DNA from: an archaeon
Lineage (GTDB): Archaea > Nanobdellota > Nanobdellia > SCGC-AAA011-G17 > GW2011-AR17
NCBI GenBank assembly: GCA_018653605.1
Contig: JABHYY010000041.1
Span: 2,874-66,873 of the forward strand
DNA: 64,000 nt
Reading direction: 5' to 3'
In this document: positions 15,800 through 54,353 of the stretch, one piece after another
How positions within the stretch are numbered: the stretch's first letter is position 1
How the letters are laid out: every line of letters starts with the position of its first letter
Translations under genes and position numbers: made by a program
Notes under the pieces: generated by a model
What the model saw: only the letters and a program-made list of their open reading frames with translations
What the model was told of the DNA's origin: nothing
Databases searched by the model: none

Positions 15800-15875
15800 G
15801 ATTTAGAGGAGAAGTAAGGTTTTCTTTATATAGTTTGTGATGGGTGTTTTGTTTGTTTGACGCCTATGTTAGCTA

Positions 15876-16130: not shown

Positions 16131-16140
16131 AAGAAAAAAA

Positions 16141-16401: not shown

Positions 16402-16450
16402 TTGAGTTCCTCCTAGTTAAGCTAATTGTATAAGTCATTTAAATAGTTTA

Positions 16451-16765: not shown

Positions 16766-16813
16766 ATTTACTATATGTGTTGTAATGGTATAAATAGTTT
16801 ACTGTGGTTTTTA

Positions 16814-17245
16814 TTGACCCCCTCACACCTTGATTGCGTATGGAGATTTGGTTTTGGTTTTGGTTGTTGTGTTTGTATTAATTTTATTAGTTGTTTCTTA
16901 TGGAAATAAGTTAAATTAAATAGGTTTTAGAGAGGGAAAAGAGGGTAAAATAATATAATATATTGCTTCATTATTATTATTATTATTATTATTCTAATTC
17001 TTTAATATATTTATAATAGAAGCTCTAATTCTCAAGAATTTTATTTTCTCTTTTTTATTTTATTTATATGTTTTTCTATATTATATTATATTATATTATA
17101 TTAGTATTAATATAATATATATATTGTATTGTGTTATCATTATATAGTTCTATTGGAAACAAAGGGGTTGATTTAAAAAGGGATGAATTTGGTGATCCAT
17201 TATTTATGTTGAAATGATTTCCATAGGAAATGATGGAGGGGGTGT
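16814..17245. promoter_or_regulatory. oriC: Predicted chromosomal replication origin (oriC): three ORB/G-string-like elements flanking an AT-rich DUE, adjacent to orc1/cdc6
   Basis: Element 1 at about 16814-16834 is inverted: its reverse complement reads atcaaggtgtgaGGGGGTcaa. Element 2 at about 17153-17171 is ttggaaacaaaGGGGTtga. Element 3 at about 17224-17245 is ataggaaatgatggaGGGGGTg. Between them, 16930-17140 is very AT-rich with (tta)n and (attat)n microsatellites. Genes to the left are all on the minus strand and genes to the right on the plus strand. orc1/cdc6 starts 52 bp downstream. Confidence 0.6.
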
Positions 17246-17296
17246 TTATTTTTAATAATGAAAATGCTTAAATAGTTTATTTGTGTATTTGGAGAT

Positions 17297-32600: not shown

Positions 32601-34447
32601 TTCCTGGAAACTCTACACAGAATGGAACTTTCTATAGATATTTAGATACTGATGATAATGGAGCTACTGGTTGTACTGCGAATGGTGGTAGTGAAGGTGA
32701 TATTGATTTAGATGGATATGATTATAAAATTGTAATGCAAGGTACTTGGAATGGAACTAGTAGTAACAATGTTTTAAGTGCATATGAATGTGCTGATTCA
32801 ACAGCGAATACTTGGGCGCCTAAGAGTGCAGCTTTAACATTTAAAGATGACTTCTGTTTAATGGAAGGTGGTCCTGGTTCTCAAGGGATTAATGCAGTTA
32901 TTTTAACTAAAAATGATTTTGGAATTGGTAGTGATAATTTAAGAATTTATATTACAACTGTGTTTGATGATGAAACAGATCCTATTGATACATTAGGTCC
33001 ATTTTATTTTACTCCTGGATCTATTGATTTTATAGGTGAGGATTGTTTTGGATTTGTTGATAAGGATGGAGATGGTGATCTTCCAAGTGATGATGCTGAT
33101 TGTTCATTTATTAATAATTTAGGATTTATGCCTTTTGAAGATTGTGGAGATGGTATTGATAACAATGCAGATGGTTTAACTGATTGTAATGATTATATGT
33201 GTACTTTTACACCAATGTGTAATGGGAATTTTGGATTTAGTGCAAGTGGAACTGATAATACTGCACCACAAGTAATTTATCATACAGTTGATGCTTTTGA
33301 TATAGGTGCATTTGTTAAGTTTGATACAAATGAACCTGCAAATGGAAGTGTGTTGTTTTATTCAAATGATTCAACTTGTACAACCTTGAATAAGAGTTTA
33401 CATGACACTGGTGACCCTATGTGTATTGGTGCATGGTGTGACTTTGATGATTATAAATTATGGCATGATTTACCAATTGATAATTTTGCTGGAGCACCGC
33501 CTGCTTGGAAATTAGGTTATGATTTGACTAATGGAACAACTTATTTCTATAGGTATAAAGTATGTGATCCTGATAGTAACTGTGCTACAAGTGCTTGTGT
33601 TAACTTTACAACTAAAGGAATTCAGCCTCAATATTATTTTGATATGGAACCACCTACAGGATTTTCTGTAAAAATGCCTTGGGATATTGAAGGAAGTGGT
33701 TTTGCAAAACAAGTTAATTTTAGTGTTGCAAAAAATATTGATATTAATATTACATGTGCTGATGCTGGTTATGAAATTAGATTAGTTGGTGCTGACATTA
33801 AAGGTGCACAAGATCTTGATGTAAGTAGTATTGTTTGTAGTGGATCAACTGGTTTGATTGGTATGACTTCAACTGTTTGGAATCAGTTATTGTTTGGATT
33901 GAGTGTTGATTATGTTGAAATTACTTGGGCTGTTGAAGAAGGTGCGACAACTGCACAACACTGTGATAATGATGGTTTGAATTGTGTTGATGTAAATGAT
34001 TATTTAGATTGTGTTACTACTGATACTTCCTGGACATGTAAAATTCCTTTAACTTTAGGATTCTCTACTTACAAAGTTGTAACTCCTACAGGTGAGGTTG
34101 CGTCTGCTACTGTTTCTGCTGGAAGTGGTGGAGCTACTGCAGAAGGTCTTTCTAATGATGAAGAGGAAGAAGAGGAAGAGGCTGATAATATTGTTGAAGA
34201 AGTTGTTGATGATGTAGCTGAAGCTGTTGATGAAGGTGTACAAAGAGTTAGTGAGTTTGTTGGAGATATTGTTGGTGAGGAAGTTGTTCAGAATACTTGG
34301 GTTTGGGTTGTTGTAGGTGGGTTGCTTGGATTAGGTGTTATAACTTTTGTTGTTTTGAAAAAAACAGGTTGTTGTAAACCTAAGAAAAAAGCTAAGAAGA
34401 AAGTTAGTAAGAAAGTGTCTAAGAAGAGAAAGGTTAAAAAACATTAA
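26606..34447 (+). CDS. Giant (2613 aa) surface protein: N-terminal signal-anchor, five tandem ~190-aa sequon-rich modules, Cys-rich region, TSP3-like motifs, FN3-like module, C-terminal acidic stretch + TM + polybasic tail
   Basis: Repeated modules each start FFETFTGPGVNVSRFT / FFETFTPPVVNVSRFT / FYDTFTGVLNNSRWT... and end GY(V/L)T(I/V)DDLNY. There are many NxS/T sequons. The Cys-rich region is paralogous to the previous gene (DCQDPVCSSDPMC, DCNDYMCTFTPMC). The C-terminus is a poly-Glu stretch (DEEEEEEEADN), then QRVSEF, then a TM helix (WVWVVVGGLLGLGVITFVV), then a KK-rich tail. Confidence 0.8.
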   Translation: MLKGVRGNLHSILLVGLIVIVFAGLFYGGITGFYTSPFGGGPIPFNNFDQFDTSAINLSLYQLTLVVGDPGVSSTLNVSVNSNFLFNVTHTGTTVGSGATKLYINTNIQQANVYTYINMTDTSSTVSASAEASSGIELSDDSFTRGACYLNLANTSQFRLVASNITGPVPYANVGAGVGNLSLQYDVPTTMINCTFRWAGGVQSILVPTNLNVINIKPKLFADLDRPAGGPGPINGSGQVESYFDFWNVTAVLPAAPPPPPATMEQPFFETFTGPGVNVSRFTMPAQMNGFNFSQSNNMIVMNGTTTNTELFMSLSNANAISISTQLTLSSVFNLTGNIGVAGTDSVLYKLGLAGTPTSSYCAMDLKFDGTYYFCADGNCTVVPKGWGNLTFDYQPIGTLVTCTYTNNMTVVERTTVGGHTTSTITNTLHISNASDSGYVTIDDLNYTVAVAPPVVVFENPFFETFTPPVVNVSRFTVPTPVPGFNFSQSAGMIVMNGTAVGLNPVTILDNVNAISIVSSTILSSVFNLTGSVANVGTDATTYRFGLFSGSPSFCNVALKQSGSYQFCANKNCTGIPKGWGNLTFTFDPAGGLVTCTFTNNVTVVSRTITGSHTSSTIRNGLIISNVSDSGYLTIDDLNYSIVVAAPPVSEQPFYDTFTGVLNNSRWTGANPLAPGFNFSLGNNMIVMNGTAVGLAAFSAFSSKININVVNPIEVRSDFNLTGNIANVGTDSVRYLLVLTNGAGPSTFCTINIDNVSQLVCANSNCTAITSTTGTLSAYYNHGSNLANCSFIDGETVVGRTIAANHGTITISNQLSISNISDSGYLTVDNLNYSSNVPNPPSAAAAPDTLGEFTEAFTGKNIDGNFFNAPSNSKGLVITQNNTLIITGATVGSDAFAYLNSQDVTDATDDYVFSVVTNLTGTVTGGKKVRAELYTRPDEASPRDGCRLQLSDNVYTICHRDSGNCSVVPSGVGTMIYSYDKSVALLSCAFNSTNYTVVSNLSIAVEDGPVYLAGYVQSTGDTLNLTFDDLSYLPGEQASLLTEFYETFDGASPNFGLFDSGDTVGSGINAIQNNALIVSGTASSTNSNFHLPTTNAVDVSDSFIVSAYVNVTSVVPSGLIAAELFNEDVAEDNYGCMLLSTDGSSYSVCTDGGALNCSIVSASEGNLTYYRHKTSNKVYCLFDPVGAGSTVVVSETLNVQVGPIYMRGYVQNSGASIVAIYDNLNYTTGEMTLPGGSPPEPDEGFGMCSSFNGNQASCLSSSDNVVCAWLNPGQEWCSPTSSGCCDQVSCQAYNGDITGCNNVASDLGCSWNDNQYNQNMWCPISSSNPYMPNGMPVIGTNIGCCTSEMCSDAAGTNQTYCDGSETNFMNSICSWETQATNPYCPDATGCCGLPDCGDVTTQTDCEYLMSKGQSCDWSGSICSSGGYDSYDGADSCVDGGGTWNGTACETPDYTDEASNARCWFADNQVSVCGNITGCVYCVAGSGYAGIANETSFCFNKQANWCEGHSPGAFAEGDPEAMTCSDIQLGVTCDCGPVPGCHWTNSSATTGAFCSSGVPQCDLDYDSLEFQQCEDATTSGDCNNLAADYFLPCTWNTGENACLFDFMAGGSGDQKGSMDFEFTDIMDEENCQFAGGSWNNVVIDSYGNTDSWCDFGFGAGMDTCNNSCWACEMQSDGTGWGSSTLAQNECETSNAVVNGCEFISFGGTQGMGDRWGWCDYPGGSEFFGGSCETMCYDCFGDDMCTTSAADCGWTEDPYGGGWCDPSSLANLQDPTLNCLAAKTETQCGTLADETVCQWNSTYVIDPFNGQSMSVCIEDGASPEICFMPGDEDENGLADCQDPVCSSDPMCGFGMGFGGEMMTDSFMLPPGMEQDLCFAYDDTNQSTCEAYVINQTLVFNGSTRGFAGLPAHLNNQVLCYYHTAPSGAQETEWCDPVFHEMMMGDMDNAPPIMLGTDATGDASSIDCLDITELGIKNEMQKMVIGVPVVNITDFAGCDKKIPGNSTQNGTFYRYLDTDDNGATGCTANGGSEGDIDLDGYDYKIVMQGTWNGTSSNNVLSAYECADSTANTWAPKSAALTFKDDFCLMEGGPGSQGINAVILTKNDFGIGSDNLRIYITTVFDDETDPIDTLGPFYFTPGSIDFIGEDCFGFVDKDGDGDLPSDDADCSFINNLGFMPFEDCGDGIDNNADGLTDCNDYMCTFTPMCNGNFGFSASGTDNTAPQVIYHTVDAFDIGAFVKFDTNEPANGSVLFYSNDSTCTTLNKSLHDTGDPMCIGAWCDFDDYKLWHDLPIDNFAGAPPAWKLGYDLTNGTTYFYRYKVCDPDSNCATSACVNFTTKGIQPQYYFDMEPPTGFSVKMPWDIEGSGFAKQVNFSVAKNIDINITCADAGYEIRLVGADIKGAQDLDVSSIVCSGSTGLIGMTSTVWNQLLFGLSVDYVEITWAVEEGATTAQHCDNDGLNCVDVNDYLDCVTTDTSWTCKIPLTLGFSTYKVVTPTGEVASATVSAGSGGATAEGLSNDEEEEEEEADNIVEEVVDDVAEAVDEGVQRVSEFVGDIVGEEVVQNTWVWVVVGGLLGLGVITFVVLKKTGCCKPKKKAKKKVSKKVSKKRKVKKH

Positions 34448-34463
34448 ATTCTTTATTATTTGT

Positions 34464-36293
34464 ATGAGGTGGTACTTAATTATTTGTTTTATAGTAATAT
34501 TAATGTTTAGTGTTAGTGCTCTTCCTGCACAGCCTTTTACTTTTGTTTGTGATGGTGAAATTTGTGATGAGGAAGATAGTGGGGATTATGAAATTCTTTT
34601 TAATACTGGTGGAAGAGGTGACTCCTATGCTGAAACAGAAGATGGTTATCCTGTAATGCTTGATAAGAAAAAGATTTATTTTGCTGAGCAGGGTTCTGAT
34701 GGGAAGTTAAGACCTACAAGGCATAAGATGGGAACTGCTGATCCTGAAAAGTTGAAGTTAATTAAAATTGCTGAGATGGATAGAAAAAGATTGATGGAGA
34801 TACCACCTGAGTTCCGTCCTGAAAGACCTTTGGATGATAGGCAAGAAGCTTTGAGGAAAAAGATTTTGCGTGAGAGAAGGTTGATGGAAGAGAACAGTGT
34901 TACTGGTGGGGTGGTTGCTGAGGAAGGAAGTTCTTTGAAAGTGTTAGTTGTGTTTATGGAATTTTCTGATCAAAAACATTCTGTTGATTTTGATTCTTTT
35001 GATAGTTATTTAGAAGGGTTGTCTGATTATTATTATTCTGAATCTAATGGAGATTTATTGTTAGATTTTTATCCTGTAAAGAATTGGTATTTGGCGCAAA
35101 ATGAGATGGGTTATTATGGTGGTGATTATGAAAGTAAAGCGGATGATCTGGTTGATGAGGCTGTTAATATGATTGATTTGTCTGGTGGTTATGATGATGA
35201 TGGAGATGGTGTTTTAGATGGGCCTTTATTAGTTATACATGCTGGTGCTGCTGATGAAACTGTTGGAGGTAATACTGATTTGATTTGGAGTTTTTATTCT
35301 TCTACTGGAGGTTTGGAATCAAATGGTGTTGAAGTGTTGGATTATGTTCTTTTGAGTGAAGAGTTTGTTCTTGGTACTGCTGCACATGAGTTTGGACATT
35401 TTTTGGGTTTGCCTGATTTGTATGATACTGATCCTGATGATGGTGAGTCAAAAGGTTGTGGTTTTTTTTGTTTGATGGGTTATGGTTGTTATCTTAGTGA
35501 GATTTCTGGGTTGAGTCCTTGGAGTCAATATTATTTAAGTTGGGATGGTGGGTTGCTTGAGGTTGATGGTTCTGGTACTTTTGAAATTGGTTATAGTGGT
35601 TCTTTGAAAGTTCCTATTGATGTTAATGAATATTTTTTAGTTGAGAATAGAGAAGAAAGTTCTTTTTTTGGTGAAAAAGTTGGTGGAGTTTTTATTTGGC
35701 ACATTGATGAGGCTGTTATGGAAGAACAAGGTAGTTGGATGGGTTGTAAAGGTTCTAGATTGGATTGTAATGTTGTTAATGCAAATGAAGTTCATAAGTT
35801 AGTTGATTTTGAAGAGGCTGATAATTTTGGATTGGATGAGGATAGTGATGTGAGTGATTATGGTGGTGAGGATGATGTGTGGGGTAGTAGTGCTGTATTT
35901 TATTCTGGTTCAGCTCCAAGTACTTTTACTTATGCTGGCGTTGAAAGTGGAGTTTCAATTGAGGTTTTGAGTTCTATTGGAGAGTTGATGGAGGTAGGTG
36001 TTAGTTTTGGTGGTGAGGAGAGTGTTGCTGAAGGAGTAAGTGGTGTTTCAAGTCCTGAGGTTAGTGGTGAAGATTATTCTGATGATCGTGATGTTATGCA
36101 GTTTGCTGGTTCTATTGATGGTGAAGATGTAGATGATGTTCCTTTTGAAGAAGAAGAGGAAGTTAGTGGAGATAGGGATGGTACTACAACTTCTGAAGAA
36201 GGTGGTTCTAATTTGTTAATATGGATAATTATTGGGGTTATTATTTTAATTGTTATTTCTATTATTAGTATTTTGTTTTTGTCTAAAAGCTGA
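34464..36293 (+). CDS. Secreted, membrane-anchored zinc metallopeptidase (HEFGHFLGLPD motif; M6/M7-like)
   Basis: Signal peptide MRWYLIICFIVILMFSVSALPA. AAHEFGHFLGLPDLYD is a HExxHxxGxxD zinc motif as in snapalysin/InhA-type peptidases. C-terminal poly-Glu then a TM helix (LLIWIIIGVIILIVISIISILFL). Confidence 0.7.
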   Translation: MRWYLIICFIVILMFSVSALPAQPFTFVCDGEICDEEDSGDYEILFNTGGRGDSYAETEDGYPVMLDKKKIYFAEQGSDGKLRPTRHKMGTADPEKLKLIKIAEMDRKRLMEIPPEFRPERPLDDRQEALRKKILRERRLMEENSVTGGVVAEEGSSLKVLVVFMEFSDQKHSVDFDSFDSYLEGLSDYYYSESNGDLLLDFYPVKNWYLAQNEMGYYGGDYESKADDLVDEAVNMIDLSGGYDDDGDGVLDGPLLVIHAGAADETVGGNTDLIWSFYSSTGGLESNGVEVLDYVLLSEEFVLGTAAHEFGHFLGLPDLYDTDPDDGESKGCGFFCLMGYGCYLSEISGLSPWSQYYLSWDGGLLEVDGSGTFEIGYSGSLKVPIDVNEYFLVENREESSFFGEKVGGVFIWHIDEAVMEEQGSWMGCKGSRLDCNVVNANEVHKLVDFEEADNFGLDEDSDVSDYGGEDDVWGSSAVFYSGSAPSTFTYAGVESGVSIEVLSSIGELMEVGVSFGGEESVAEGVSGVSSPEVSGEDYSDDRDVMQFAGSIDGEDVDDVPFEEEEEVSGDRDGTTTSEEGGSNLLIWIIIGVIILIVISIISILFLSKS

Positions 36294-36347: not shown

Positions 36348-39300
36348 ATGGCTGAATTTTCTGAGAGAATAGGGAAGTATTTGGAGACGATTAATGTAGA
36401 GGTTCTAAAGTGTTATGATATTGCTAATGAAGCCAAAAGCAAAGGATTTGACCCAAATAAGAGGGTTATGATGCCTCTTGCTAAGAACATGGCAGAGAGA
36501 GTAGAGGGTTTGATTGGTTCTGTTGCTCCAGAGATTTTGGGTAAGGGTGTGCCTAAGAGGATTCAAGAGCTTGAGAAAGAGTATGGGATGCAGGATTGGA
36601 GAGTTGCTCTCAAAATTGCTGAAGAGGTTGCTCTTGAAAAATTTTGTAAGTTTGAAGATAAAATTCGTGCAATGGAGATTGGTATTAGGACAGGGTTTGC
36701 ATATGTTACTGTTGGTGTTGTTGCTTCACCTTTAGAAGGTTTTATTGGATTAAAAGTTCGTGAAAGGATGGATGGACAGGGTGAGTATCTTGCTTTGATT
36801 TATGGTGGTCCGATTCGTAGTGCTGGTGGAACTGGTGCTAGTGTTTCTATTTTGATTGCTGATTATGTTAGAAAGATAATGGGGTATAAAGAGTATGATG
36901 CAACTGAGAAGGAAGTTAAAAGAGCTTATTCTGAATTGTGTGATTATCATGAGCGAGTTACTAACTTGCAGTATTTTCCTTCTGAAGAAGAGATAAAGTA
37001 TTTGGTTGAACATTTGCCTATTCAGTTAGATGGTGATCCTTCTGAAAAATGGGATGTTTCAAATTATAAAGATCTTTCTCGTCGTGTTGCTAATAGAATT
37101 AGTAATGGGTTTTGTTTGATTACTGCTGAATGTTTGGGTTTGAAAGCTCCTAAAGTTTGGAAACAATTGGCTAAGTGGGGAAAGGACATGGATATGGAAC
37201 AATGGAATTTTATGAAAGATTTTGTTGATTTACAAAAAGAGGTTAGGGCTCGTGGTGTTAAGGTTAGTAAAAAAGTTGAAGCAAAATTAAAGCCTGATAC
37301 AAATTACATTAAAGATTTGGTTGCTGGTCGTCCTGTGTTTACTCATCCTATGAGAAATGGTGGGTTTAGGTTGCGTTATGGTCGTGGTCGGGTTTCTGGT
37401 TTTTCTGCTGATAGTGTTAATCCTGCAACAATGGTTGTTAGTGATGATTTTATTGCTGTTGGTACACAGTTTAAAGTTGAAAGGCCAGGTAAAGCAACTG
37501 TTGCAAATGTTTGTGATACTATTGATGGGCCAATTGTTAAATTGAAAAATGGTTCTGTTGTTTGTTTGAATACTTATGAAGATGCTCGGTTGGTTGCGAA
37601 AGAAGTTGATGAAATAATTTATCTTGGTGATTTGTTAGTGAACTATGGTGATTTTTTGGATAGAGCACATAAGTTGATCCCTTGTGGTTTTGTTGAAGAA
37701 TGGTGGGCTATGCTTGTTGAGAAAAAAATAAGTGAAGGTAGTCAAAGTATTGATGGTGTTGAAGATGTGATTAAGTTCCCTCTGAAAAATAGATTAAGTT
37801 TAGATCAAGCTATTGAATATAGTGAGAAGTTAGGTGTTCCTTTGTATCCAAAGTATATTTATTTCTGGGATTCAATTTCTGTTGATGATTTTAAAAAATT
37901 GTATCTTGTTTTGAAGGATTCTTCTTTTGATGGAATGAAGATGGTTGTTGCTGATCTTTCTGTGAAAAGAAGTTTGGAGTTGATTGGTTGTGAACATAAG
38001 TTGGTTGGTGATGAACATTTAATTATTGATGATGCTAGAGCTTTGGTTTTCAATCTTGGTGGGTTTGAGAAAGAGTTGGTTGTAAAGGATGATGTTTTGG
38101 AGATGGTGAATTCTTTGTGTAAGTTTGAAGTTAAAGATAAGTGTGGAACTTTTGTTGGTGCTCGGATGGGTCGACCTGAAAAAGCTAAGATGAGAAAGAT
38201 GAAAGGTAGTCCTCATGTTTTGTTTCCTGTTGGTGATGAGGGTGGAAGGTTGAGATGTTTCCAGAGTTCTTTAGAGGCTGGAAAAGTTTCTAGCAATTTT
38301 CCTTATTATATTTGTGAGTGTGGGAAGCAAACAATTTATCCTGTTTGTGAAAATTGTGGTAAGAGAGGGAAGCAAAAATTTTGGTGTAGAGGTTGTAAGG
38401 AGTTGAAGGATGAAGAAGAGTGTGAAAAACATGATAAGTGTTCTAAGTCTGTTTATCAACAGATTGATATTAAACATTATTTTTATAAGGCACTTGAGGT
38501 GATTGGTTCTCGTCAGTATCCTAGTTTGATTAAAGGTGTTCGTGGTATGAGTAGTGTTGGAAAGATTCCTGAACATTTGGTTCGTGGTATTTTAAGAGCA
38601 AAAAATTCTGTGCATGTGAATAAAGATGGAACTATTCGGTATGATATGATTGAATTGCCATTGACTCATTTTAAACCTAAGGAGATTGGAACTCCTATTG
38701 AAAAATTGAAAGAGTTAGGGTATTTGAAAGATGTTTATGGTGAAGATTTGGTTAATGATGAACAAATTTTGGAGTTGATTGCACAGGATGTTGTTTTGCC
38801 TGCACCTGTTGATGCTCCTGAACAAGGTGCTGATGAAGTTTTGTTTAGGGTTGGTGGGTTTATTGATGATTTGTTGGTTCATTTGTATAAAATGGATCCT
38901 TATTATAAGTTTGAAAAGAAAAGTGATTTGATTGGACATTTGATTGTTGCAATGAGTCCGCATACTTCTGCTGGTATTGTTTCTCGGATAATTGGTTTTT
39001 CTAAAGCTCAAGGTTTGTATGCTCATCCTTTGTTGCATAGTATTATGCGTAGAGATTGTGTGCATCCAAGTACTGAATTGGTTATTGGTGAAGACAAAAA
39101 ATTAGTTAAAATTGGAGATTATGTTGAAGATTTGATAAAAAGGGGTGCAAAAACAAAAAGAATTGATCTGGTTGGCACTTTGTCTGTTGAAAATATTGAT
39201 GATGTTTGTGTTTATGGTGTTGATTCTAAAACTTTTGAGTTTAAAGAAAAAAAAGTTAAGTCTTTTATTAAAGGACCTGTTAACAATAAATGGGTTGTTG

Positions 39301-40310
39301 TAAAATCTTTGAAGGGGAAGGAATTTGTTATGACGCCAGATCATAATCACCTTTCAATTGTTAATGGAAACTTTAAAATTATTAAGGCTAAAGAGGTTTC
39401 TGTAAAGGATAAGTTGATTGTGTGGGATGGAAAAGTGTTGTCAGAGCAAATAGTTGAAGTAAGTAGTTTATCTGACCCTGTGAATAGTTATTGTTTGGAT
39501 GTTGAAGATGAAGAGTTGATTGAAAAGAGTGTTCTTTGGGGAGATAATATAATTAATCTTAGATGTGATGGTGATGAAGCAGGGTGTATGTTGTTAATGG
39601 ATTGTTTATTGAATTTTTCAATGAAATATTTGCCTAACACTCGAGGGATTAGTCAGGATGCTCCTTTGGTTTTAACTTCTAGGTTAGTTCCTTCTGAAGT
39701 TGATGATATGGTGTTTAATATGGATATTTGTGATCATTATCCTTTAGAGTTGTATGAGGCTGCTGAAGAGTATAAGTATCCTTGGGATATTAAGATACAT
39801 ATTTTAGAGAATGATTTGGGTACTGAGAAACAGTATGAAGGTATGATGTTTACACATGATACTTCTGATTTTAATAATGGTGTGTTGGTTAGTGCGTATA
39901 AGACTTTGCCTTCAATGAGGGAGAAAGTGTTGGGTCAAATGGAAGTTGGTCGGAAGATTCGTGCTGTTGATGTTGATGATGTTGCTCGGTTGGTTATTGA
40001 AAGGCATTTTATTCGTGATATTAAAGGTAACTTGCGTAAGTTTTCTCAGCAAGGTTTTAGATGTGTAAAGTGTAATGAAATTTATCGTCGTCCTCCTTTA
40101 GCTGGAAAGTGTTTAGCTTGTTCTGGAAAGTTAGTGTTTACAATTGCTGAGGGTTCTATTTGTAAATACTTACAGCCTGCATTGGATCTTGCTAAGAAAT
40201 ATAATCTTCCTGCTTATTTGCAACAGAGTTTGGTTTTGCTTAAGAATAGAATTGAAAGTGTGTTTGGAAAAGATCCTGAAAAGCAAGAAGGTTTGGGTAA
40301 GTGGTTCTAG
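36348..40310 (+). CDS. polC: DNA polymerase II (PolD) large subunit DP2, with intein-like insertion
   Basis: 1320 aa. Conserved DP2 N-terminus (MAEFSERIGKYLETINVEVLKCYDIANEA...), a Zn-finger cluster (CECGKQTIYPVCENCG...), the catalytic-region motif ...HSIMRRD | insertion | LRCDGDEAGCMLLMDCLLNFS, and C-terminal Zn-binding (CVKCNEIYRRPPLAGKCLAC). Confidence 0.9.
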   Translation: MAEFSERIGKYLETINVEVLKCYDIANEAKSKGFDPNKRVMMPLAKNMAERVEGLIGSVAPEILGKGVPKRIQELEKEYGMQDWRVALKIAEEVALEKFCKFEDKIRAMEIGIRTGFAYVTVGVVASPLEGFIGLKVRERMDGQGEYLALIYGGPIRSAGGTGASVSILIADYVRKIMGYKEYDATEKEVKRAYSELCDYHERVTNLQYFPSEEEIKYLVEHLPIQLDGDPSEKWDVSNYKDLSRRVANRISNGFCLITAECLGLKAPKVWKQLAKWGKDMDMEQWNFMKDFVDLQKEVRARGVKVSKKVEAKLKPDTNYIKDLVAGRPVFTHPMRNGGFRLRYGRGRVSGFSADSVNPATMVVSDDFIAVGTQFKVERPGKATVANVCDTIDGPIVKLKNGSVVCLNTYEDARLVAKEVDEIIYLGDLLVNYGDFLDRAHKLIPCGFVEEWWAMLVEKKISEGSQSIDGVEDVIKFPLKNRLSLDQAIEYSEKLGVPLYPKYIYFWDSISVDDFKKLYLVLKDSSFDGMKMVVADLSVKRSLELIGCEHKLVGDEHLIIDDARALVFNLGGFEKELVVKDDVLEMVNSLCKFEVKDKCGTFVGARMGRPEKAKMRKMKGSPHVLFPVGDEGGRLRCFQSSLEAGKVSSNFPYYICECGKQTIYPVCENCGKRGKQKFWCRGCKELKDEEECEKHDKCSKSVYQQIDIKHYFYKALEVIGSRQYPSLIKGVRGMSSVGKIPEHLVRGILRAKNSVHVNKDGTIRYDMIELPLTHFKPKEIGTPIEKLKELGYLKDVYGEDLVNDEQILELIAQDVVLPAPVDAPEQGADEVLFRVGGFIDDLLVHLYKMDPYYKFEKKSDLIGHLIVAMSPHTSAGIVSRIIGFSKAQGLYAHPLLHSIMRRDCVHPSTELVIGEDKKLVKIGDYVEDLIKRGAKTKRIDLVGTLSVENIDDVCVYGVDSKTFEFKEKKVKSFIKGPVNNKWVVVKSLKGKEFVMTPDHNHLSIVNGNFKIIKAKEVSVKDKLIVWDGKVLSEQIVEVSSLSDPVNSYCLDVEDEELIEKSVLWGDNIINLRCDGDEAGCMLLMDCLLNFSMKYLPNTRGISQDAPLVLTSRLVPSEVDDMVFNMDICDHYPLELYEAAEEYKYPWDIKIHILENDLGTEKQYEGMMFTHDTSDFNNGVLVSAYKTLPSMREKVLGQMEVGRKIRAVDVDDVARLVIERHFIRDIKGNLRKFSQQGFRCVKCNEIYRRPPLAGKCLACSGKLVFTIAEGSICKYLQPALDLAKKYNLPAYLQQSLVLLKNRIESVFGKDPEKQEGLGKWF
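39057..39557 (+). mobile_element. Hint-domain (mini-intein-like) insertion in PolD DP2 catalytic motif
   Basis: About 167 aa inserted between RRD and (LR)CDGDE. It starts with Cys (CVHPSTELVIGEDKKLVKIGDYVEDLI, block A-like), contains VMTPDHNHLSIV...KDKLIVWDG (block B TxxH) and a block F/G-like YCLDVEDEE...SVLWGDNIIN. No LAGLIDADG/HNH endonuclease domain is evident. The C-terminal junction is non-canonical (IIN then L-R then C). Confidence 0.45.
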
Positions 40311-50606: not shown

Positions 50607-50984
50607 TTGATTATTTCTTTTATGGTAAGTGTTGTTAGAACTATTGGTGGTATTGCTTTGGCAGTTGGGTTAGGTAGTGCTGTTGGTGGTTGTAGTTGGT
50701 TAAACGAGAATTATGAAAAGGCCGATAGGATTGAAGAAAAAGCTGCTGGTGCTGATAAAGTTTTAAGTTCTGCAGAATTAGTACAAATGGCTAGGGATTT
50801 GGGTTATGAAGGTGTAATTAGACATGGTGATCATATTTATATAGATTCTAATTCTCTTAAATTGTGTGTTGCTGGTAGTTGTACAAAACTTAGTGATGAA
50901 GTTGTTGGTGCTTATTTGGCAGAAAAAGCTGGTGATGATGATGATTCAGGTAAAGTGTATTCTACAGTAATTATTTTTCCTTAG
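50607..50984 (+). CDS. Small secreted/lipoprotein-like protein
   Basis: Signal-like N-terminus ending ...GSAVGGCSWL, possibly a lipobox-type Cys. 125 aa. Confidence 0.4.
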   Translation: MIISFMVSVVRTIGGIALAVGLGSAVGGCSWLNENYEKADRIEEKAAGADKVLSSAELVQMARDLGYEGVIRHGDHIYIDSNSLKLCVAGSCTKLSDEVVGAYLAEKAGDDDDSGKVYSTVIIFP

Positions 50985-51102
50985 TTTTAGAAGGGTCAAT
51001 AGTAGCTTTGACTACAATGGGTTTCTTTGTTAAAATATTTTAAAGAGTATGCAATTCAAGCCAATAGAAAGATTTATAAGTACTCGATAGTGACAAAAAA
51101 TT

Positions 51103-51696
51103 ATGAAATTACTAGTTGTAGGGGATATTCATGGAGATAAAGGTTTAGCTAAAGAGCTCTCTGAAAAAGCTGAGAAAGAGGGTGTTGATTTTGTTGTTTT
51201 ATGTGGTGATGTTTCTGAATCTGATGAAAATTTTGAGGGTATTGTTGGTTTGTTTAAACAAAAAGTGTTTTTGGTTCCTGGGAATCATGATTCTGATGCT
51301 ACTGTTGATTTTTTGGCTGAGTTGTATAAAGGTAAGAATTTGGAAGGGTATGGGTATAAGCTTGGTGATGTTGGATTGTTTGGTTCTGGTTCTGTTGTTC
51401 AAGGTATTTTTCAAAAACCTGAAGCTGAAATTTTTGATATGTTAAGAAAAGGTGCTGAGTATGTTAAAGATTGTAAAACTAAAATTTTGGTGAGTCACAC
51501 TCATCCTGTTGGTACAAAAATGGAAAGGTTTTCTGAGTTTGTGCATGGAAGTGAAGGTTTGAGAAAAGCTATTGATGTTTTGAAACCAAATATGGTTTTT
51601 TGTTCGCATGTGCATGAAGCTGAAGGTATTGAAGAGATGATTGGTGAGACAAGAGTGATTAATGTTGGTAGGAAAGGTAAGATTATTGAGGTTTAG
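51103..51696 (+). CDS. Metallophosphoesterase (calcineurin-like)
   Basis: Motifs VVGDIHGD, LCGDV, VPGNHD, SHTHP and CSHVHE. Confidence 0.7.
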   Translation: MKLLVVGDIHGDKGLAKELSEKAEKEGVDFVVLCGDVSESDENFEGIVGLFKQKVFLVPGNHDSDATVDFLAELYKGKNLEGYGYKLGDVGLFGSGSVVQGIFQKPEAEIFDMLRKGAEYVKDCKTKILVSHTHPVGTKMERFSEFVHGSEGLRKAIDVLKPNMVFCSHVHEAEGIEEMIGETRVINVGRKGKIIEV

Positions 51697-51699
51697 AAA

Positions 51700-52548
51700 A
51701 TGATACTTTATACTGGTGGTTGTGATCTTGATGATTATATTACTGATGCAGAGAATGTGTTAGATGTTCAGGGTTGGTCTAAAGAAAATTTTCATGGTGC
51801 ATCTGCTTCTTTTTATTCTAATGAAACTTTTTTTGGTTTTAAATTTTTAATGAAATTGTTTAATGATACTTTTGCTGGTAGTGTCAGAAGACAACATTTG
51901 ATTAATAGAGAAATTAAAATTTTGAATGTTTGTACTGAAAATGATCTTTCAGGTTTTCCTAGACTTTATGGTTCTGGTGAAATTGAAGGGGATGATTATT
52001 TAATTATGAATTTTTTTCAAGGGAGAGAAGTTGTTAAATTAATTTCTGATCCAAATTTTGATAGATCTTCTTTTATTCCTTATTTGCCTCAATTGGCTGA
52101 TGATATTGGTGGATTACATGGTGTTGATTATATTCATAGAGATATTAAACCTGCAAATTTATTGTTATTAGAAGATGGATTTAGAATTGTTGATTTGGGA
52201 ATTGCTGTTTCTGTTGATGGAGATTTTAGAATTGGAAGAACTGCTGGAACTCCTGGTTACATGTCTCCTGAACATTGTGATGGTTTGAAATTGTCTCCTA
52301 CATCTGATGTTTATGCTTTGGGCATGACTTTGTATCAAATGCTTTTTGGTAAGCATCCCTTCTTCAAAGCTACTTCTACAAAAGAAGTAATGAATTGGCA
52401 AATTAATAAAATGCCTAGACCTTTGAGTGAATTTGTTTTTGTTCCTGAAGGTTTGAGTAGAGTTGTAATGAAAGCTTTGGCAAAATATCCTGATGATAGG
52501 TTTAGGAATGGTCATGAAATGGCTGATGCTTTAGCGAGGGTTTGTTGA
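51700..52548 (+). CDS. Hanks-type Ser/Thr protein kinase (atypical N-lobe)
   Basis: HRDIKPANLLL catalytic loop, DLG (DFG variant), GTPGYMSPE activation segment. No canonical GxGxxG loop. Confidence 0.7.
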   Translation: MILYTGGCDLDDYITDAENVLDVQGWSKENFHGASASFYSNETFFGFKFLMKLFNDTFAGSVRRQHLINREIKILNVCTENDLSGFPRLYGSGEIEGDDYLIMNFFQGREVVKLISDPNFDRSSFIPYLPQLADDIGGLHGVDYIHRDIKPANLLLLEDGFRIVDLGIAVSVDGDFRIGRTAGTPGYMSPEHCDGLKLSPTSDVYALGMTLYQMLFGKHPFFKATSTKEVMNWQINKMPRPLSEFVFVPEGLSRVVMKALAKYPDDRFRNGHEMADALARVC

Positions 52549-52549
52549 A

Positions 52550-53446
52550 ATGAGAAATTTTTTAACTGGGCTTTGGGAGGCAGCAAGAAAAGAAGATGAT
52601 TATTCTTTTGCTGATGTTAAAAGTTTTTTAGAAGATTTTGGTCCAAATTCTTGGGTTTATAGACCTGAGCTTAGAGGTGCAAATTCTAGAATTTTTACTC
52701 GTGAAAAGGAGTATGGGGATAGTGAACTAATGAAAGTTTTTCCTAAAGTGGCTATTACAAAACCCATTAAGCGTGAAGTGTTTAGAAGAGAGGTTGTTGC
52801 TTATATGAAATGTCAAGAATATTCTTTGTCAGGTTTTCCAATTTATACTCTCGAAGGGACTGTTATGGGAAGATTTTTTTTAGTTTTGCCTTATATTGAA
52901 GGAGATAATTTAGAACAAGCTTTGTGGAAAGAGGATTTTTCTCCTAAAGATGTTGAAGAATACTTGCCTAAACTTGCAAGAGATGTTGGTGGAGCTCATC
53001 TTGTTGAATTGGTTCATAGAGATCTTAAACCTGCAAACATTGTGGTTGGTTCTGATGGGTTATATATTGTTGATTTGGGTTTGATGATAAGTTCTGTAAG
53101 GGGAAGAGATTCTTTTTTTACTAGGAATTTGCTTGTTGGAACTCCTAGTAATATGGCACCTGAACAAATTAAAAGAGAACCTGTAAGTCCTAGGTCTGAT
53201 GTTTATTCTTTGGGTACTGTTTTATATCATATATATGCTGGTAGGAATCCTTTTAGAGAGAATAGTACTTTTGATCCAAGAAAAATTTTAAGAAGACAGT
53301 TGTATGGAAAAATGGAACCATTGGCAGATGTTTGTGATGTTTCAGTTGAGATGAATGATCTTGTTATGAAGTGTTTAGAGATTGAACCTTCTAAAAGACC
53401 TGCTGATGGATTGACTTTAAGTAGGGCTTTGGAAGAGGTTTTGTAG
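52550..53446 (+). CDS. Hanks-type Ser/Thr protein kinase paralog
   Basis: HRDLKPANIVV, DLG, GTPSNMAPE. Start is 2 nt after the previous stop. Confidence 0.7.
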   Translation: MRNFLTGLWEAARKEDDYSFADVKSFLEDFGPNSWVYRPELRGANSRIFTREKEYGDSELMKVFPKVAITKPIKREVFRREVVAYMKCQEYSLSGFPIYTLEGTVMGRFFLVLPYIEGDNLEQALWKEDFSPKDVEEYLPKLARDVGGAHLVELVHRDLKPANIVVGSDGLYIVDLGLMISSVRGRDSFFTRNLLVGTPSNMAPEQIKREPVSPRSDVYSLGTVLYHIYAGRNPFRENSTFDPRKILRRQLYGKMEPLADVCDVSVEMNDLVMKCLEIEPSKRPADGLTLSRALEEVL

Positions 53447-53447
53447 A

Positions 53448-54200
53448 ATGAGTTTTGAATTCCATCATAGTCATTTTAATGGATGTTTTGCTGATTTTGA
53501 AATTAGGGGAGATGATATTTTAAGAAAAAAAACTAAACTTAGAGGTTTAAGATATTTTTTAAATGAAGCAAAAACACATAAATTTTATTCTATGGCTGAG
53601 GTTTCATATGTACCAAATTTTTTAGGAGCTGGTGTGGAATGGAATTTGAGACCTTATATTGAAATGGAGTTAATTAAAGGATTAAATTTAGAAGAAATAA
53701 GTAAAGAAGAAGGGAGATTAGTGCGTAGGATTCCTTTGTTAGTTAAGATGGCTGATGTTGTTGCTGGTTTTCATTCTTTTGGGAAGTTGCATAGGGATCT
53801 TAAACCAAAAAATTTTTTAGAAGATGAACAAGGTAATGTTTATTTGATTGATTTGGGATTAGCTGCTTCCTTAGGCCATAAAGATCATTGGTTGGCTGAT
53901 GGTACACCCGCTTATATGTCACCGGAAGCAGTAAGTGCAAAACCTTTGTATGTTTCTTCTGACATTTATTCTTTAGGTATGATTTTTTATGCTTTGTTAG
54001 CTGGTCATCCCTTTCAAGATACTTCAAGTATTGAACAAATTATGAAGTGGCAAATTAAAAAAATGCCTAGACCTTTAATTGAAGTTGCTAATGTTTCTGA
54101 AAAAGTAAGTGATGCTGTTATGAAGTGTTTAAGGAAAGATCCTGATAGAAGATATAAGTCTGCAGAATACTTAAGAGATGATTTGGTAGCAGTTTTGTAG
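53448..54200 (+). CDS. Hanks-type Ser/Thr protein kinase paralog
   Basis: HRDLKPKNFL, DLG, GTPAYMSPE. Shares the C-lobe motif WQIKKMPRPL with the first paralog. Confidence 0.7.
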   Translation: MSFEFHHSHFNGCFADFEIRGDDILRKKTKLRGLRYFLNEAKTHKFYSMAEVSYVPNFLGAGVEWNLRPYIEMELIKGLNLEEISKEEGRLVRRIPLLVKMADVVAGFHSFGKLHRDLKPKNFLEDEQGNVYLIDLGLAASLGHKDHWLADGTPAYMSPEAVSAKPLYVSSDIYSLGMIFYALLAGHPFQDTSSIEQIMKWQIKKMPRPLIEVANVSEKVSDAVMKCLRKDPDRRYKSAEYLRDDLVAVL

Positions 54201-54353
54201 AAAGAAAAAAAATTGAAAGAAACGGGGGGAGGTGTGTTCTTTCTAATAGTAAAGATGTCTGATGCGGTTTATAAAGTGAAAGAAGTCTAAATATAGATCT
54301 ATAATCTATATTTTGGGAAAGGTTTTTATAAGGATGAGGGTTTTTGATAGGTA

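What the first reader, a model, noticed from the sequence alone, without database searches (positions are those of the whole stretch)
51103..54200. Metallophosphoesterase followed by three tandem Hanks-type kinase paralogues lacking the glycine-rich loop
Three back-to-back kinases with 2-nt spacing retain HRD, DLG and APE motifs, but none has a GxGxxG P-loop. The N-lobes are short and divergent. A phosphoesterase is encoded immediately upstream on the same strand. This looks like a self-contained phospho-signalling cassette, a kinase trio with its phosphatase, or partly a set of pseudokinases. A trio of this kind is uncommon in small archaeal genomes.
Basis: partly seen in the sequence, partly recalled or inferred. 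Interest (0 to 1): 0.55.

Follow-up and report, generated by a model that had tools for sequence, protein, structure and literature searches.

The report
Fast-evolving tandem Ser/Thr kinases, DPANN archaeon
Three back-to-back, probably active PknB-like protein kinases with a worn-down glycine loop sit behind a conserved housekeeping phosphoesterase in a marine ultra-small archaeon; the kinases are a recent, fast-changing insertion, not a kinase/phosphatase cassette.

Summary
The four genes are real: a metallophosphoesterase (MPE, 51103-51696) and three kinases (K1 51700-52548, K2 52550-53446, K3 53448-54200). They are separated by 3, 1 and 1 nt. All three kinases pass Pfam Pkinase, and a confident K2 model superposes on M. 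tuberculosis PknB.

No strict GxGxxG exists, but the loop is degenerate rather than absent. The central glycine is kept, the third position is Ser/Ala as in PknB, and the first glycine is Phe/Leu. The beta3 Lys, alphaC Glu, HRD, KPxN, DLG, (A/S)PE and subdomain XI Arg are all present. The catalytic residues are invariant across 13 family members, so the pseudokinase reading is unlikely.

The cassette reading is not supported. The MPE has more than 1700 homologues (55-95% identity in the 120 listed) carrying DPANN labels. At three checked loci elsewhere it has no adjacent kinase, and it lacks the PPP signature.

The kinases occur only in a few close relatives, always between the MPE and topoisomerase I, in arrays of 0, 1, 2 or 3 genes from four paralogue groups. 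Their dN is 4-15 times that of their neighbours (omega 0.4-0.9 versus 0.06-0.2), with signs of gene conversion and recombination.

NCBI already annotates them as Ser/Thr kinases. Interest is modest.

The parts
51073..51079 (+). TATA-like box (TTTATAA) about 27 nt upstream of the MPE ATG. Inferred archaeal promoter of a leaderless MPE-K1-K2-K3 transcript.
   Evidence: Read directly from the sequence. A similar TTTTTATAA lies at 54323-54331, about 26 nt before the topoisomerase ATG. Promoter function is inferred, not shown.
51103..51696 (+). Metallophosphoesterase, 197 aa. It is a conserved DPANN-wide family of the 'Icc-related' type, with all metal-ligand motifs present (GDIHGD, CGD, GNHD, SHTHP, SHVHE).
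   Evidence: Pfam Metallophos 1.6e-16 and Metallophos_2 2e-13. More than 1700 homologues, 55-95% identical in the 120 listed. Invariant D8, D36, N61, H62, H132 and H169 in 33 homologues. Omega is 0.06-0.2. No close solved structure.
51688..51692 (+). Shine-Dalgarno-like GAGGT, 7 nt before the K1 ATG, inside the last codons of the MPE gene.
   Evidence: Sequence read. Function is inferred.
51700..52548 (+). K1, a 282-aa Hanks-type Ser/Thr kinase. Loop FHG33ASASFY, beta3 K52 (FLMK), alphaC E71 (NREI), then HRDIKPAN, DLG and SPE.
   Evidence: Pfam Pkinase 7.2e-27. Best PDB hits are StkP, PknA and PknB. Alignments. Orthologues occur in L011, L023, L025 and L027 at 51-60% identity, with omega 0.46-0.94.
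52536..52541 (+). Shine-Dalgarno-like GAGGGT, 8 nt before the K2 ATG.
   Evidence: Sequence read. Function is inferred.
52550..53446 (+). K2, a 298-aa Hanks-type Ser/Thr kinase. Loop LRG43ANSRIF, beta3 K62, alphaC E81, then HRDLKPAN, DLG, APE and R283. It has a two-helix N-terminal extension.
   Evidence: Pfam Pkinase 3.4e-28. AF2 model with pLDDT 90 and pTM 0.88. Best Foldseek hits are PknB 1o6y and 2fum, TM 0.83-0.85 on the target. K62 and E81 fall in columns that are at least 90% conserved across 123 kinases. It is the only paralogue present in L007.
53435..53439 (+). Shine-Dalgarno-like GAGGT, 8 nt before the K3 ATG.
   Evidence: Sequence read. Function is inferred.
53448..54200 (+). K3, a 250-aa Hanks-type kinase with a shortened N-lobe. 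Loop FNG12CFADFE, putative beta3 K27 (ILRK), putative alphaC E40 (FLNEAK), then HRDLKPKN, DLG and SPE.
   Evidence: Pfam Pkinase 1.2e-28 from profile position 70. Best PDB hit is PknB. The Lys and Glu assignment rests only on the paralogue alignment A2, because hhalign against generic kinases covers only aa 54-251. The L011/L012 orthologue is frameshifted in a T7G4 run.

Best explanation
K1, K2 and K3 are most likely soluble, single-domain, catalytically competent PknB-like (Hanks-type) Ser/Thr protein kinases. One ancestral kinase gene probably entered a marine DPANN lineage (Nanoarchaeota/Woesearchaeota-like) from bacteria. It landed just downstream of a conserved housekeeping metallophosphoesterase gene and upstream of topoisomerase I. 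It has since diversified by tandem duplication, loss, gene conversion and recombination.

The kinases are probably expressed by read-through from the MPE's TATA promoter. The MPE would be translated from a leaderless start, and each kinase has its own Shine-Dalgarno-like GAGGT.

ATP is probably still bound. The Lys-Glu pair, the catalytic loop (HRDxKPxN) and the DLG metal-binding Asp are intact. The beta1-beta2 hairpin keeps its central Gly and small residues (Ala/Ser) although two of the three canonical glycines are gone.

Selection holds the catalytic core. The N-terminal extension, the alphaD region and the activation loop change fast, which suggests shifting partners or substrates.

The MPE is a neighbour by position, not a dedicated phosphatase.

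Shown here: gene content, family membership, the K2 fold, residue conservation, the evolutionary pattern and the distribution of the MPE. Inferred: catalytic activity, co-transcription, horizontal origin and the lack of a functional link to the MPE.
For: - Family: Pfam Pkinase at 95-101 bits. The best solved relatives are the PknB, StkP and PknA catalytic domains.
- Fold: the K2 AF2 model has pLDDT 90 and its best structural matches are PknB, at TM 0.83-0.85 over about 275 columns covering both lobes.
- Catalytic residues: K62 and E81 sit in columns that are at least 90% conserved across 123 kinases. Twenty-four residues are invariant in all 13 family members. They include alphaC Glu, HxD Asp, KPxN, DxG, APE Glu and the subdomain XI Arg.
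- Selection: in K1, pN/pS is 0.27-0.36 at the catalytic loop and C-terminus but 1.1-1.5 in the N-terminal extension, alphaD and activation loop. All five K1 ORFs are intact although dN is about 0.3-0.45.
- One origin: the 13 kinases form one clade (100% bootstrap against a PknB outgroup) with four paralogue groups, each at 100% bootstrap.
- Copy number at the same locus is 0 (L014/L015), 1 (L007), 2 (L023, L025, L027) or 3 (window, L011).
- Bacterial affinity: all other homologues are bacterial-type STKs at about 30-38% identity.
- The MPE is independent of the kinases. Its omega is the same, 0.14-0.2, with or without kinases nearby.
- Operon signals.
Against: - No biochemical data exist.
- The first and third G-loop glycines are missing everywhere, and even the central one is lost in 4 of 13 relatives (L011 K1 and the three K4 proteins). 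ATP affinity could therefore be impaired.
- K1 has an overall omega of 0.5-0.9, close to neutral.
- Some relatives have HKD, HHD, HVD or HLD and DMG, DVG or DYG variants.
- The K3 N-lobe could not be aligned to generic kinases by hhalign and was not modelled.
- The K2 model was built from an alignment dominated by ordinary kinases, so its resemblance to PknB is partly expected.
- Every kinase-bearing lineage keeps the first kinase 0-5 nt after the MPE, so a functional link cannot be excluded.
- No donor lineage was identified.
Confidence: 0.62

Rival explanations
1. Self-contained phospho-signalling cassette. The MPE is the cognate protein Ser/Thr phosphatase that reverses phosphorylation by the three kinases encoded in the same operon.
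For: - In all six kinase-bearing lineages the first kinase starts 0-5 nt after the MPE stop.
- The MPE keeps all metal ligands.
- Its first motif, GDIHG, matches the PPP GDxHG motif.
- PPP phosphatases belong to the same superfamily.
Against: - The MPE family is very large, with more than 1700 hits at 55-95% identity in the 120 listed.
- It occurs without kinases at all three loci checked outside the kinase-bearing lineages, including the fully syntenic L014/L015.
- It has 'CGDVSES' instead of GDxVDRG and GNHD instead of GNHE.
- Its nearest named models are YfcE/Icc-type phosphodiesterases and SbcD, all below their cutoffs.
- Its best solved relatives are weak: aq_1956, an Ap4A-hydrolase-like N-terminus and GpdQ.
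- A published PPP HMM survey recovered only three DPANN sequences (PMC8249667).
- Its omega does not differ between kinase-bearing and kinase-free lineages.
Confidence: 0.13
2. Pseudokinases. Loss of the glycine-rich loop has abolished nucleotide binding, and one or more of the three proteins act as scaffolds or allosteric partners of an active paralogue.
For: - No GxGxxG is present.
- K1 evolves almost neutrally overall, with omega up to 0.94.
- L011 K1 has lost the central Gly.
- HRD and DLG drift in relatives.
- K3 is frameshifted in L011/L012.
- K3 has a truncated N-lobe that cannot be aligned to generic kinases.
Against: - By the usual criterion (loss of the VAIK Lys, the HRD Asp or the DFG Asp), none of the three qualifies.
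- The catalytic residues are invariant in 13 sequences that are otherwise only about 30-60% identical.
- They lie in the regions of lowest pN/pS.
- A Ser or Ala at the third Gly position is normal in active kinases, including PknB.
Confidence: 0.08
3. Conflict module. The array is an anti-viral kinase system (like Stk2 or PD-T4-6) or a set of host-directed effectors of an episymbiotic archaeon. Its targets are foreign or host proteins, which would explain the turnover.
For: - dN is 4-15 times that of flanking genes at similar dS.
- pN/pS exceeds 1 on surface regions.
- Copy number varies from 0 to 4 paralogue types among genomes whose MPE is 72-96% identical.
- There are signs of gene conversion in L023 and of a recombination breakpoint in L027.
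- Other variable cargo sits at the same spot: a LAGLIDADG ORF in L023 and a Cys-rich lipoprotein in L007.
- PADLOC PD-T4-6 models score up to 1.7e-41, and the MPE hits PDC-S10 at 5e-14.
Against: - The PADLOC kinase models are generic bacterial STK profiles without thresholds.
- Nothing identifiable as a partner effector, sensor domain, signal peptide or secretion signal was seen.
- The flanks are housekeeping genes (MutS/MutL, TopoI, RadB-like, CDC48), not a defence island.
- There are no relatives in IMG/VR and only generic ones in phages.
- Window-based pN/pS from five sequences is noisy.
- Relaxed constraint after duplication explains most of the pattern.
Confidence: 0.17

Closest known systems
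Bacterial PknB/PknA/StkP-type Hanks Ser/Thr kinase catalytic domains (e.g. M. tuberculosis PknB, PDB 1o6y, 2fum, 6b2p)
   Same: - They are the best sequence and structure matches.
- They share the bilobal fold, the beta3 Lys, the 'RFxRE' alphaC motif (K2 'VFRRE'), HRDxKPxN, the GTxxYxSPE P+1/APE segment, SDVYSLG and the subdomain XI Arg.
- PknB also has Ser at the third G-loop position (GFGGMSEV).
   Different: - The window kinases have no juxtamembrane, transmembrane or PASTA sensor part. They are 250-298 aa and kinase domain only.
- The first G-loop Gly is replaced by Phe or Leu.
- They have DLG instead of DFG.
- K1 and K2 have a family-specific N-terminal extension of about 35 aa with two helices. 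K3 has a shortened beta2-beta3 hairpin and beta3-alphaC loop.
- The host is archaeal.
- Identity is only about 20-38%.
Archaeal Hanks-type kinases of Sulfolobus (ArnC, ArnD, ArnS) with the PP2A/PTP phosphatases
   Same: They are cytosolic archaeal ePKs. ArnD consists of only the kinase domain (PMC5300886). Kinase cross-phosphorylation is known in Sulfolobus (PMC5682000).
   Different: ArnC and ArnD are reported to contain all 12 typical subdomains. Their phosphatases are a true PPP (PP2A) and a PTP (PMC5007285), not this MPE type. There is no specific sequence affinity: the window kinases group with bacterial STKs.
Pseudokinases (kinase-fold proteins lacking the VAIK Lys, HRD Asp or DFG Asp)
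   Same: A degraded glycine-rich loop is frequent in pseudokinases. Evolution is fast, and the proteins are paired with paralogues.
   Different: All three catalytic markers and the alphaC Glu are retained and conserved.
Single-gene kinase defence candidates (PADLOC PD-T4-6; mad6 of MADS)
   Same: They are soluble Ser/Thr kinases. The PADLOC profiles match at 1e-34 to 1e-41.
   Different: The matches are generic kinase-domain similarity. NCBIfam MAD6 scores 55-71 bits against a cutoff of 460. There is no defence-island context.
Calcineurin-like metallophosphoesterases of the Icc/YfcE/aq_1956 type (Pfam Metallophos, Metallophos_2, Metallophos_3); PPP protein phosphatases as the alternative
   Same: The MPE has the five MPE motifs with all metal ligands. 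There is a weak full-length match to aq_1956 (2yvt).
   Different: No characterised close relative exists: the best PDB E-values are 4e-4 to 5e-3. It lacks the PPP GDxVDRG and GNHE signatures. At 197 aa it is shorter than PPP catalytic domains.

Membership tests
Hanks-type (eukaryotic-like) protein kinase, Pfam PF00069 | Significant match to the family profile above the curated threshold | tested here: met
   K1 scores 94.9, K2 99.2 and K3 100.7 bits against a cutoff of 31.7.
Hanks-type (eukaryotic-like) protein kinase, Pfam PF00069 | Bilobal kinase fold (five-stranded N-lobe with alphaC, helical C-lobe) | tested here: met
   K2 only. The AF2 model has pLDDT 90 and pTM 0.88, and its best Foldseek hits are PknB at TM 0.83-0.85.
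Hanks-type (eukaryotic-like) protein kinase, Pfam PF00069 | Subdomain I glycine-rich loop GxGxxG | tested here: not met
   Only the central Gly is kept (K1 G33, K2 G43, K3 G12). The first position is F or L and the third is A or S. In 118 generic homologues the first position is G or A in 99 of 100.
Hanks-type (eukaryotic-like) protein kinase, Pfam PF00069 | Subdomain II Lys (beta3) and subdomain III Glu (alphaC) | tested here: met
   K2 K62 and E81 lie in columns at least 90% conserved across 123 sequences. K1 K52 and E71 are assigned by the paralogue alignment. The Glu is invariant in 13 relatives. For K3, K27 and E40 rest on alignment A2 only, because hhalign did not reach the N-lobe, so K3 is inconclusive.
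Hanks-type (eukaryotic-like) protein kinase, Pfam PF00069 | Subdomain VIb HRDxKxxN, VII DFG, VIII APE and XI Arg | tested here: met
   The three proteins have HRDIKPAN, HRDLKPAN and HRDLKPKN. All have DLG (Leu in place of Phe), then SPE, APE and SPE. R283 (K2 numbering) is present. D, K, N, D, G, E and R are invariant in 13 relatives.
Hanks-type (eukaryotic-like) protein kinase, Pfam PF00069 | ATP-dependent phosphorylation of Ser/Thr | not testable with these tools
   This needs in vitro assays.
Pseudokinase | Loss of at least one of the VAIK Lys, HRD Asp or DFG Asp | tested here: not met
   All three residues are present in K1 and K2. In K3 both Asp residues are present and the beta3 Lys (K27) is assigned from the paralogue alignment only. 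The two Asp residues are invariant in 13 relatives.
PPP-family protein Ser/Thr phosphatase (for the MPE) | Signature motifs GDxHG, GDxVDRG and GNHE (from established knowledge of the family) | tested here: not met
   The MPE has GDIHG (met), CGDVSES (no DRG) and GNHD. No PPP-type model appears among the NCBIfam hits. PPPs are almost absent from DPANN in a published HMM survey (PMC8249667), whereas this MPE family has more than 1700 hits.
PPP-family protein Ser/Thr phosphatase (for the MPE) | Co-occurrence with the kinases it would oppose (expected of a dedicated partner) | tested here: not met
   The MPE occurs without any adjacent kinase in L014/L015, L016 and L017.
Calcineurin-like metallophosphoesterase superfamily (PF00149) | Profile match plus conserved metal-ligand motifs D-x-H, GD, GNH[DE], H and GHxH-like | tested here: met
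   Metallophos scores 61.8 bits against a cutoff of 21.5. D8, H10, D36, N61, H62, H132, H169 and H171 are invariant or nearly invariant in 33 homologues.
Bud32/RIO atypical kinases (considered because of the 'GA[SN][AS]' loop) | Family profile match; no APE or activation segment | tested here: not met
   NCBIfam arch_bud32 scores 21-34 bits against a cutoff of 125, and only over the hinge and catalytic loop. Pfam RIO1 scores 16.7 against 22. The N-lobes alone hit nothing. APE and the full C-lobe are present.
Kinase-based anti-phage defence (PD-T4-6, MADS Mad6, BREX PglW) | Family-specific profile above threshold and defence-system partners | tested here: not met
   NCBIfam MAD6 scores 55-71 bits against 460, and PglW 31-41 against 990. 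The PADLOC hits are generic. The neighbours are MutL, TopoI and a RadB-like gene.

The most novel reading that the evidence does not exclude
The MPE-TopoI gap is a hot spot for a rapidly diversifying kinase array. It holds four paralogue types in arrays of 0-3 copies, with gene conversion and inter-lineage recombination. The array may serve in biological conflict, either as viral defence or as manipulation of the host cell by an episymbiotic DPANN archaeon. Its unusual glycine-poor nucleotide loop might be an adaptation, for example altered nucleotide use or resistance to a kinase inhibitor, rather than decay.
Probability: 0.15. Interest if true: 0.6.

Novelty: new member of a known kind. Interest (0 to 1): 0.3.

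Why it matters
Very little is known about Ser/Thr phosphorylation in DPANN archaea. Their reduced genomes are usually credited only with Bud32 and RIO kinases. Here a bacterial-type Hanks kinase has been acquired and then duplicated and reshuffled at one fixed locus within a clonal, widespread marine population.

That gives a compact natural experiment on how kinases diversify. The catalytic core is held while the surfaces and the G-loop drift. It also provides three small, domain-only kinases with which to test how much of the glycine-rich loop an active kinase needs.

The result also carries a caution. Tight operon adjacency to a phosphoesterase does not make that enzyme a cognate phosphatase.

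The proteins are already annotated as Ser/Thr kinases, so the gain is in detail rather than in kind.

Tried and rejected
- The first AF2 run on K2 used a 5-sequence alignment and gave a useless model (pLDDT 54). It was repeated with 123 sequences.
- The profile search of 1.84 billion representatives was swamped by giant multi-kinase-domain proteins ranked on summed scores. Only P0001 (the K2 type) and P0290 (the K1 type) were recognisable family members in the top 150.
- The GTDB genome scan with K2 found no close relative, only a 26%-identical kinase in a CPR bacterium.
- The metagenome scan with the K2 orthologue alignment returned only one further true orthologue, a contig already known.
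- There were no relatives in IMG/VR. GenBank phages held only generic hits at 25-31% identity.
- I considered that the 'G-A-[SN]-[AS]' loop marks a Bud32/RIO-like N-lobe grafted on a Hanks C-lobe. This is rejected. The N-lobes hit no Pfam family, the Bud32 and RIO scores are far below cutoff, and the whole K2 model matches PknB.
- hhalign of K3 against generic kinases did not extend into the N-lobe.
- The MPE profile against the PDB gave only a marginal partial GpdQ hit.
- The afdb50 fold library was unavailable.
- Literature searches found nothing specific on DPANN Hanks-type kinases.
- The bacterial sigma-70 promoter scan was not used, because the organism is archaeal. TATA and SD motifs were read by eye.

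Full report
**Observation.** The region holds four same-strand ORFs: a 197-aa metallophosphoesterase (MPE, 51103-51696) and three kinases. These are K1 (51700-52548, 282 aa), K2 (52550-53446, 298 aa) and K3 (53448-54200, 250 aa). The gaps between stop and next start are 3, 1 and 1 nt. The MPE hits Pfam Metallophos at 1.6e-16. The kinases hit Pkinase at 95-101 bits against a cutoff of 31.7, but the matches start only at profile positions 29, 21 and 70. The N-lobes alone hit no Pfam family even at E<=10. HRD and DLG are present in all three, followed by APE in K2 and SPE in K1 and K3. None has a literal GxGxxG. The genes are clearly real. The exact proteins occur on more than 20 metagenome contigs. 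NCBI carries them as 'serine/threonine protein kinase [archaeon]' and, for the MPE, 'hypothetical protein'.

**Organism and context.**
- The window is archaeal. It encodes Cdc6/Orc1, both PolD subunits, LonB, a RadB-like protein and CDC48.
- GC content is about 32%, with a strong G-over-C skew on the coding strand.
- MPE homologues are labelled Nanoarchaeota, Woesearchaeota or Nanoarchaeia, and relatives come from Tara mesopelagic samples of the 0.1-0.22 um fraction. This points to a marine DPANN archaeon.
- The neighbours are MutS, a ferredoxin-domain protein on the minus strand, MutL and a small lipoprotein-like ORF. Then come the MPE, K1, K2, K3 and topoisomerase IA. After those come two small ORFs, a RadB-like gene on the minus strand, YdjM, a MutS_V protein and CDC48.
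- No FHA, PP2C, PTP or further kinase was found in the 64 kb.

**What the kinases are.**
- The best solved relatives are the catalytic domains of PknB, StkP and PknA.
- With a 123-sequence alignment, AlphaFold2 gave a confident K2 model (pLDDT 90, pTM 0.88). Its best Foldseek hits are M. tuberculosis PknB, at TM 0.83-0.85 on the target over about 275 columns, so both lobes match.
- The model shows beta2 at 47-51, beta3 at 59-63, alphaC at 72-90, beta4 and beta5 at 101-114, and two extra N-terminal helices at 2-13 and 20-28.
- In the deep alignment, K2 K62 and E81 fall in columns that are at least 90% conserved. These are the beta3 Lys and the alphaC Glu, within 'VFRRE', compared with PknB 'RFRRE'.

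**The glycine-rich loop.** The K2 loop 'L41-R-G43-A-N-S46-R-I48-F49' aligns without gaps to the bacterial consensus 'G-R-G-G-M-G-x-V-Y'.
- The first Gly is lost. It is Phe or Leu in K1-K3, although it is Gly or Ala in 99 of 100 generic homologues.
- The central Gly, the most conserved one, is kept (K1 G33, K2 G43, K3 G12).
- The third is Ser or Ala. Ala occurs there in 21 of 105 generic homologues, and PknB itself has Ser (GFGGMSEV, verified against 6b2p_A).
- The loop is therefore degenerate rather than absent.

**K3.** It has a shorter beta2-beta3 hairpin and a shorter beta3-alphaC loop. Its Lys (K27, 'ILRK') and Glu (E40, 'FLNEAK') are assigned only from the paralogue alignment. hhalign against generic kinases covers just residues 54-251. 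That assignment is an inference.

**Active or dead?** I recovered 13 family members from seven locus types.
- They are only about 30-65% identical, yet 24 positions are invariant. These include alphaC Glu, His-x-Asp, Lys-Pro-x-Asn, Asp-x-Gly, the APE Glu, the alphaF Asp and the subdomain XI Arg.
- The beta3 Lys is present in every sequence.
- Variation touches only non-essential neighbours: HRD becomes HKD, HHD, HVD or HLD, and DLG becomes DMG, DVG or DYG.
- A sliding pN/pS analysis of five K1 orthologues gives 0.27-0.36 over the catalytic loop and C-terminus. It gives 1.1-1.5 over the N-terminal extension, the alphaD region and the activation loop.
- All five K1 genes are intact although dN is 0.3-0.45.
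- This is the signature of working enzymes with changing surfaces, not of pseudokinases. The caveats are that L011 K1 and the K4 group have lost even the central Gly, and that no assay exists.

**Evolutionary pattern.**
- The 13 kinases form one clade (100% bootstrap against a PknB outgroup). With eight generic bacterial kinases added, the seven kinases then known also grouped at 100%. There are four paralogue groups, K1 to K4, each at 100% bootstrap.
- Arrays are K1-K2-K3 (window, L011), K1-K4 (L023, L025, L027), K2 alone (L007) and none (L014/L015). They always lie between the MPE and topoisomerase I.
- Against the window, the MPE is 93-96% identical in the K1-bearing relatives, 85% in L007 and 72% in L014. 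K1 orthologues are only 51-60% identical, K2 61-63% and K3 65%.
- At similar dS, kinase dN is 4-15 times that of the MPE, TopoI, CDC48 or RadB. Omega is 0.37-0.94 for the kinases against 0.05-0.28 for the neighbours (0.06-0.21 for the MPE).
- In L023, K1 and K4 share 84% nucleotide identity over their last 30 codons against about 55% elsewhere, which indicates gene conversion.
- L027 has a window-type MPE (95%) but an L007-type TopoI (96%, against 85% to the window). A recombination breakpoint therefore lies in the kinase region.
- The L011/L012 K3 carries a frameshift in a T7G4 run, seen in one clone from two samples.
- The window's own population is clonal, with 0-1 SNP in 3.1 kb across six contigs.
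- All other homologues are bacterial-type STKs at about 30-38% identity, with no close relatives among GTDB species representatives (one genome per species), IMG/VR contigs or GenBank phages. Acquisition from bacteria is plausible, but no donor was identified.

**The MPE.**
- It has more than 1700 homologues, 55-95% identical in the 120 listed and carrying archaeon, Nanoarchaeota or Woesearchaeota labels. All metal ligands are conserved and omega is low.
- In the fully syntenic relative L014/L015 the order is SerRS, Fer4, MPE, TopoI, RadB and CDC48, and the MPE is followed directly by TopoI.
- In L016 it precedes a DUF1858 protein, and in L017 it lies between Sua5 and DHDPS/RtcB. None of these loci has a kinase.
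- It has GDIHG, but 'CGDVSES' rather than GDxVDRG, and GNHD rather than GNHE.
- The nearest named models are YfcE/Icc-type phosphodiesterases and SbcD, all below threshold. Solved relatives are marginal: aq_1956, an Ap4A-hydrolase-like N-terminus and GpdQ.
- A published PPP survey found almost no PPPs in DPANN (PMC8249667).
- The MPE is therefore a conserved housekeeping-type phosphoesterase of unknown substrate. The kinases were inserted behind it. It is not their dedicated phosphatase, although an opportunistic link cannot be excluded.

**Expression (inferred).**
- A TTTATAA box lies about 27 nt before the MPE ATG (51073-51079). A TTTTTATAA lies about 26 nt before the TopoI ATG (54323-54331). 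Both are typical of archaeal leaderless transcripts.
- There is no room for promoters between the MPE, K1, K2 and K3.
- Each kinase ATG is preceded at 7-8 nt by GAGGT or GAGGGT, embedded in the previous gene's last codons.
- One polycistronic MPE-K1-K2-K3 mRNA is the simplest reading.

**Comparison with known systems.**
- The kinases work like, and are members of, the Hanks-type family, closest to PknB-like bacterial STKs. One subdomain signature (GxGxxG) is formally not met.
- They differ from PknB in lacking any sensor or membrane part, in the Phe or Leu at the first loop position, in DLG, and in the N-terminal extension.
- Sulfolobus ArnC and ArnD are the nearest archaeal analogues in lifestyle. 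However, they are reported to have all 12 subdomains, and the phosphatases that act there are a PPP and a PTP (PMC5300886, PMC5007285).
- Defence-kinase profiles match only generically.

**Verdict.**
- The 'kinase trio plus its phosphatase' and 'pseudokinase' readings are not supported.
- What is there is a lineage-specific, rapidly evolving tandem array of probably active, minimal PknB-like kinases riding on a conserved gene's promoter.
- It is a new member of a known kind and already annotated as kinases, so interest is modest (0.3).
- The most novel reading still open is a conflict-related kinase array, at a probability of about 0.15.

Noticed in passing
window 15800-17296 (with 17297-19964): A 1.5-kb gene-free, AT-rich stretch lies directly upstream of cdc6/orc1 (17297-18508), which is followed by the PolD small subunit (18501-19964). 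An inverted repeat, TTTCTTATGGAAATAAGTTAAA / TTGAAATGATTTCCATAGGAAA, sits at 16894-16915 and 17209-17230. This is probably the replication origin with ORB-like elements.
   Followed up: partly
window 20084-26476 and 26606-34447: Two giant ORFs of 2130 and 2613 aa have no Pfam hit at 1e-4. An M6-peptidase-like protein follows at 34464-36293. They are probably DPANN-type surface proteins.
   Followed up: no
window 36348-40310: The PolD large subunit DP2 (1320 aa) has a weak Intein_splicing match at aa 950-1025, suggesting an intein insertion.
   Followed up: no
whole window: There is a very strong G-over-C skew on the coding strand (up to +0.5 in 2-kb windows) at about 30-36% GC. The sign follows gene orientation.
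   Followed up: no
window 2754-4201 (minus strand): A tyrosine recombinase (Phage_integrase, 6.7e-34) lies next to a DUF5680 protein. This may be the edge of an integrated element.
   Followed up: no
L023 8870-10033: A 387-aa ORF with a LAGLIDADG_3 domain (23.2 bits against a cutoff of 22.5) and a C-terminal wHTH is inserted between kinase K4 and topoisomerase I. It overlaps the TopoI start by 4 nt. It looks like a free-standing homing-endonuclease-like gene at the same variable spot.
   Followed up: partly
L027 versus window and L007: This is a mosaic locus. The MPE is 95% identical to the window clade, but TopoI is 96% identical to L007 and only 85% to the window. That implies inter-lineage recombination with a breakpoint in the kinase region.
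   Followed up: partly
L023 7001-8700: The last 30 codons of the tandem paralogues K1 and K4 are 84% identical at the nucleotide level, against about 55% elsewhere. This indicates gene conversion.
   Followed up: partly
L011 4001-4757 (= L012 1206-1962): The K3 orthologue is split by a frameshift in a T7G4 run. L011 and L012 are identical over 4.7 kb, so this is one clone seen in two samples. Whether it is a real pseudogene or a homopolymer error is undecided.
   Followed up: partly
window 50607-50984; L007 9013-9420 (minus strand): Small lipoprotein-like ORFs flank the cassette. One has the signal 'LAVGLGSAVGGCS' and the other, Cys-rich, has 'LLLLVGC'. They differ between lineages and have no Pfam hits.
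   Followed up: no
window 51103-54200 versus L001-L006: The window's population is almost clonal across metagenomes from different samples, with 0-1 SNP in 3.1 kb. The next relatives differ by 40-50% in the kinases.
   Followed up: yes
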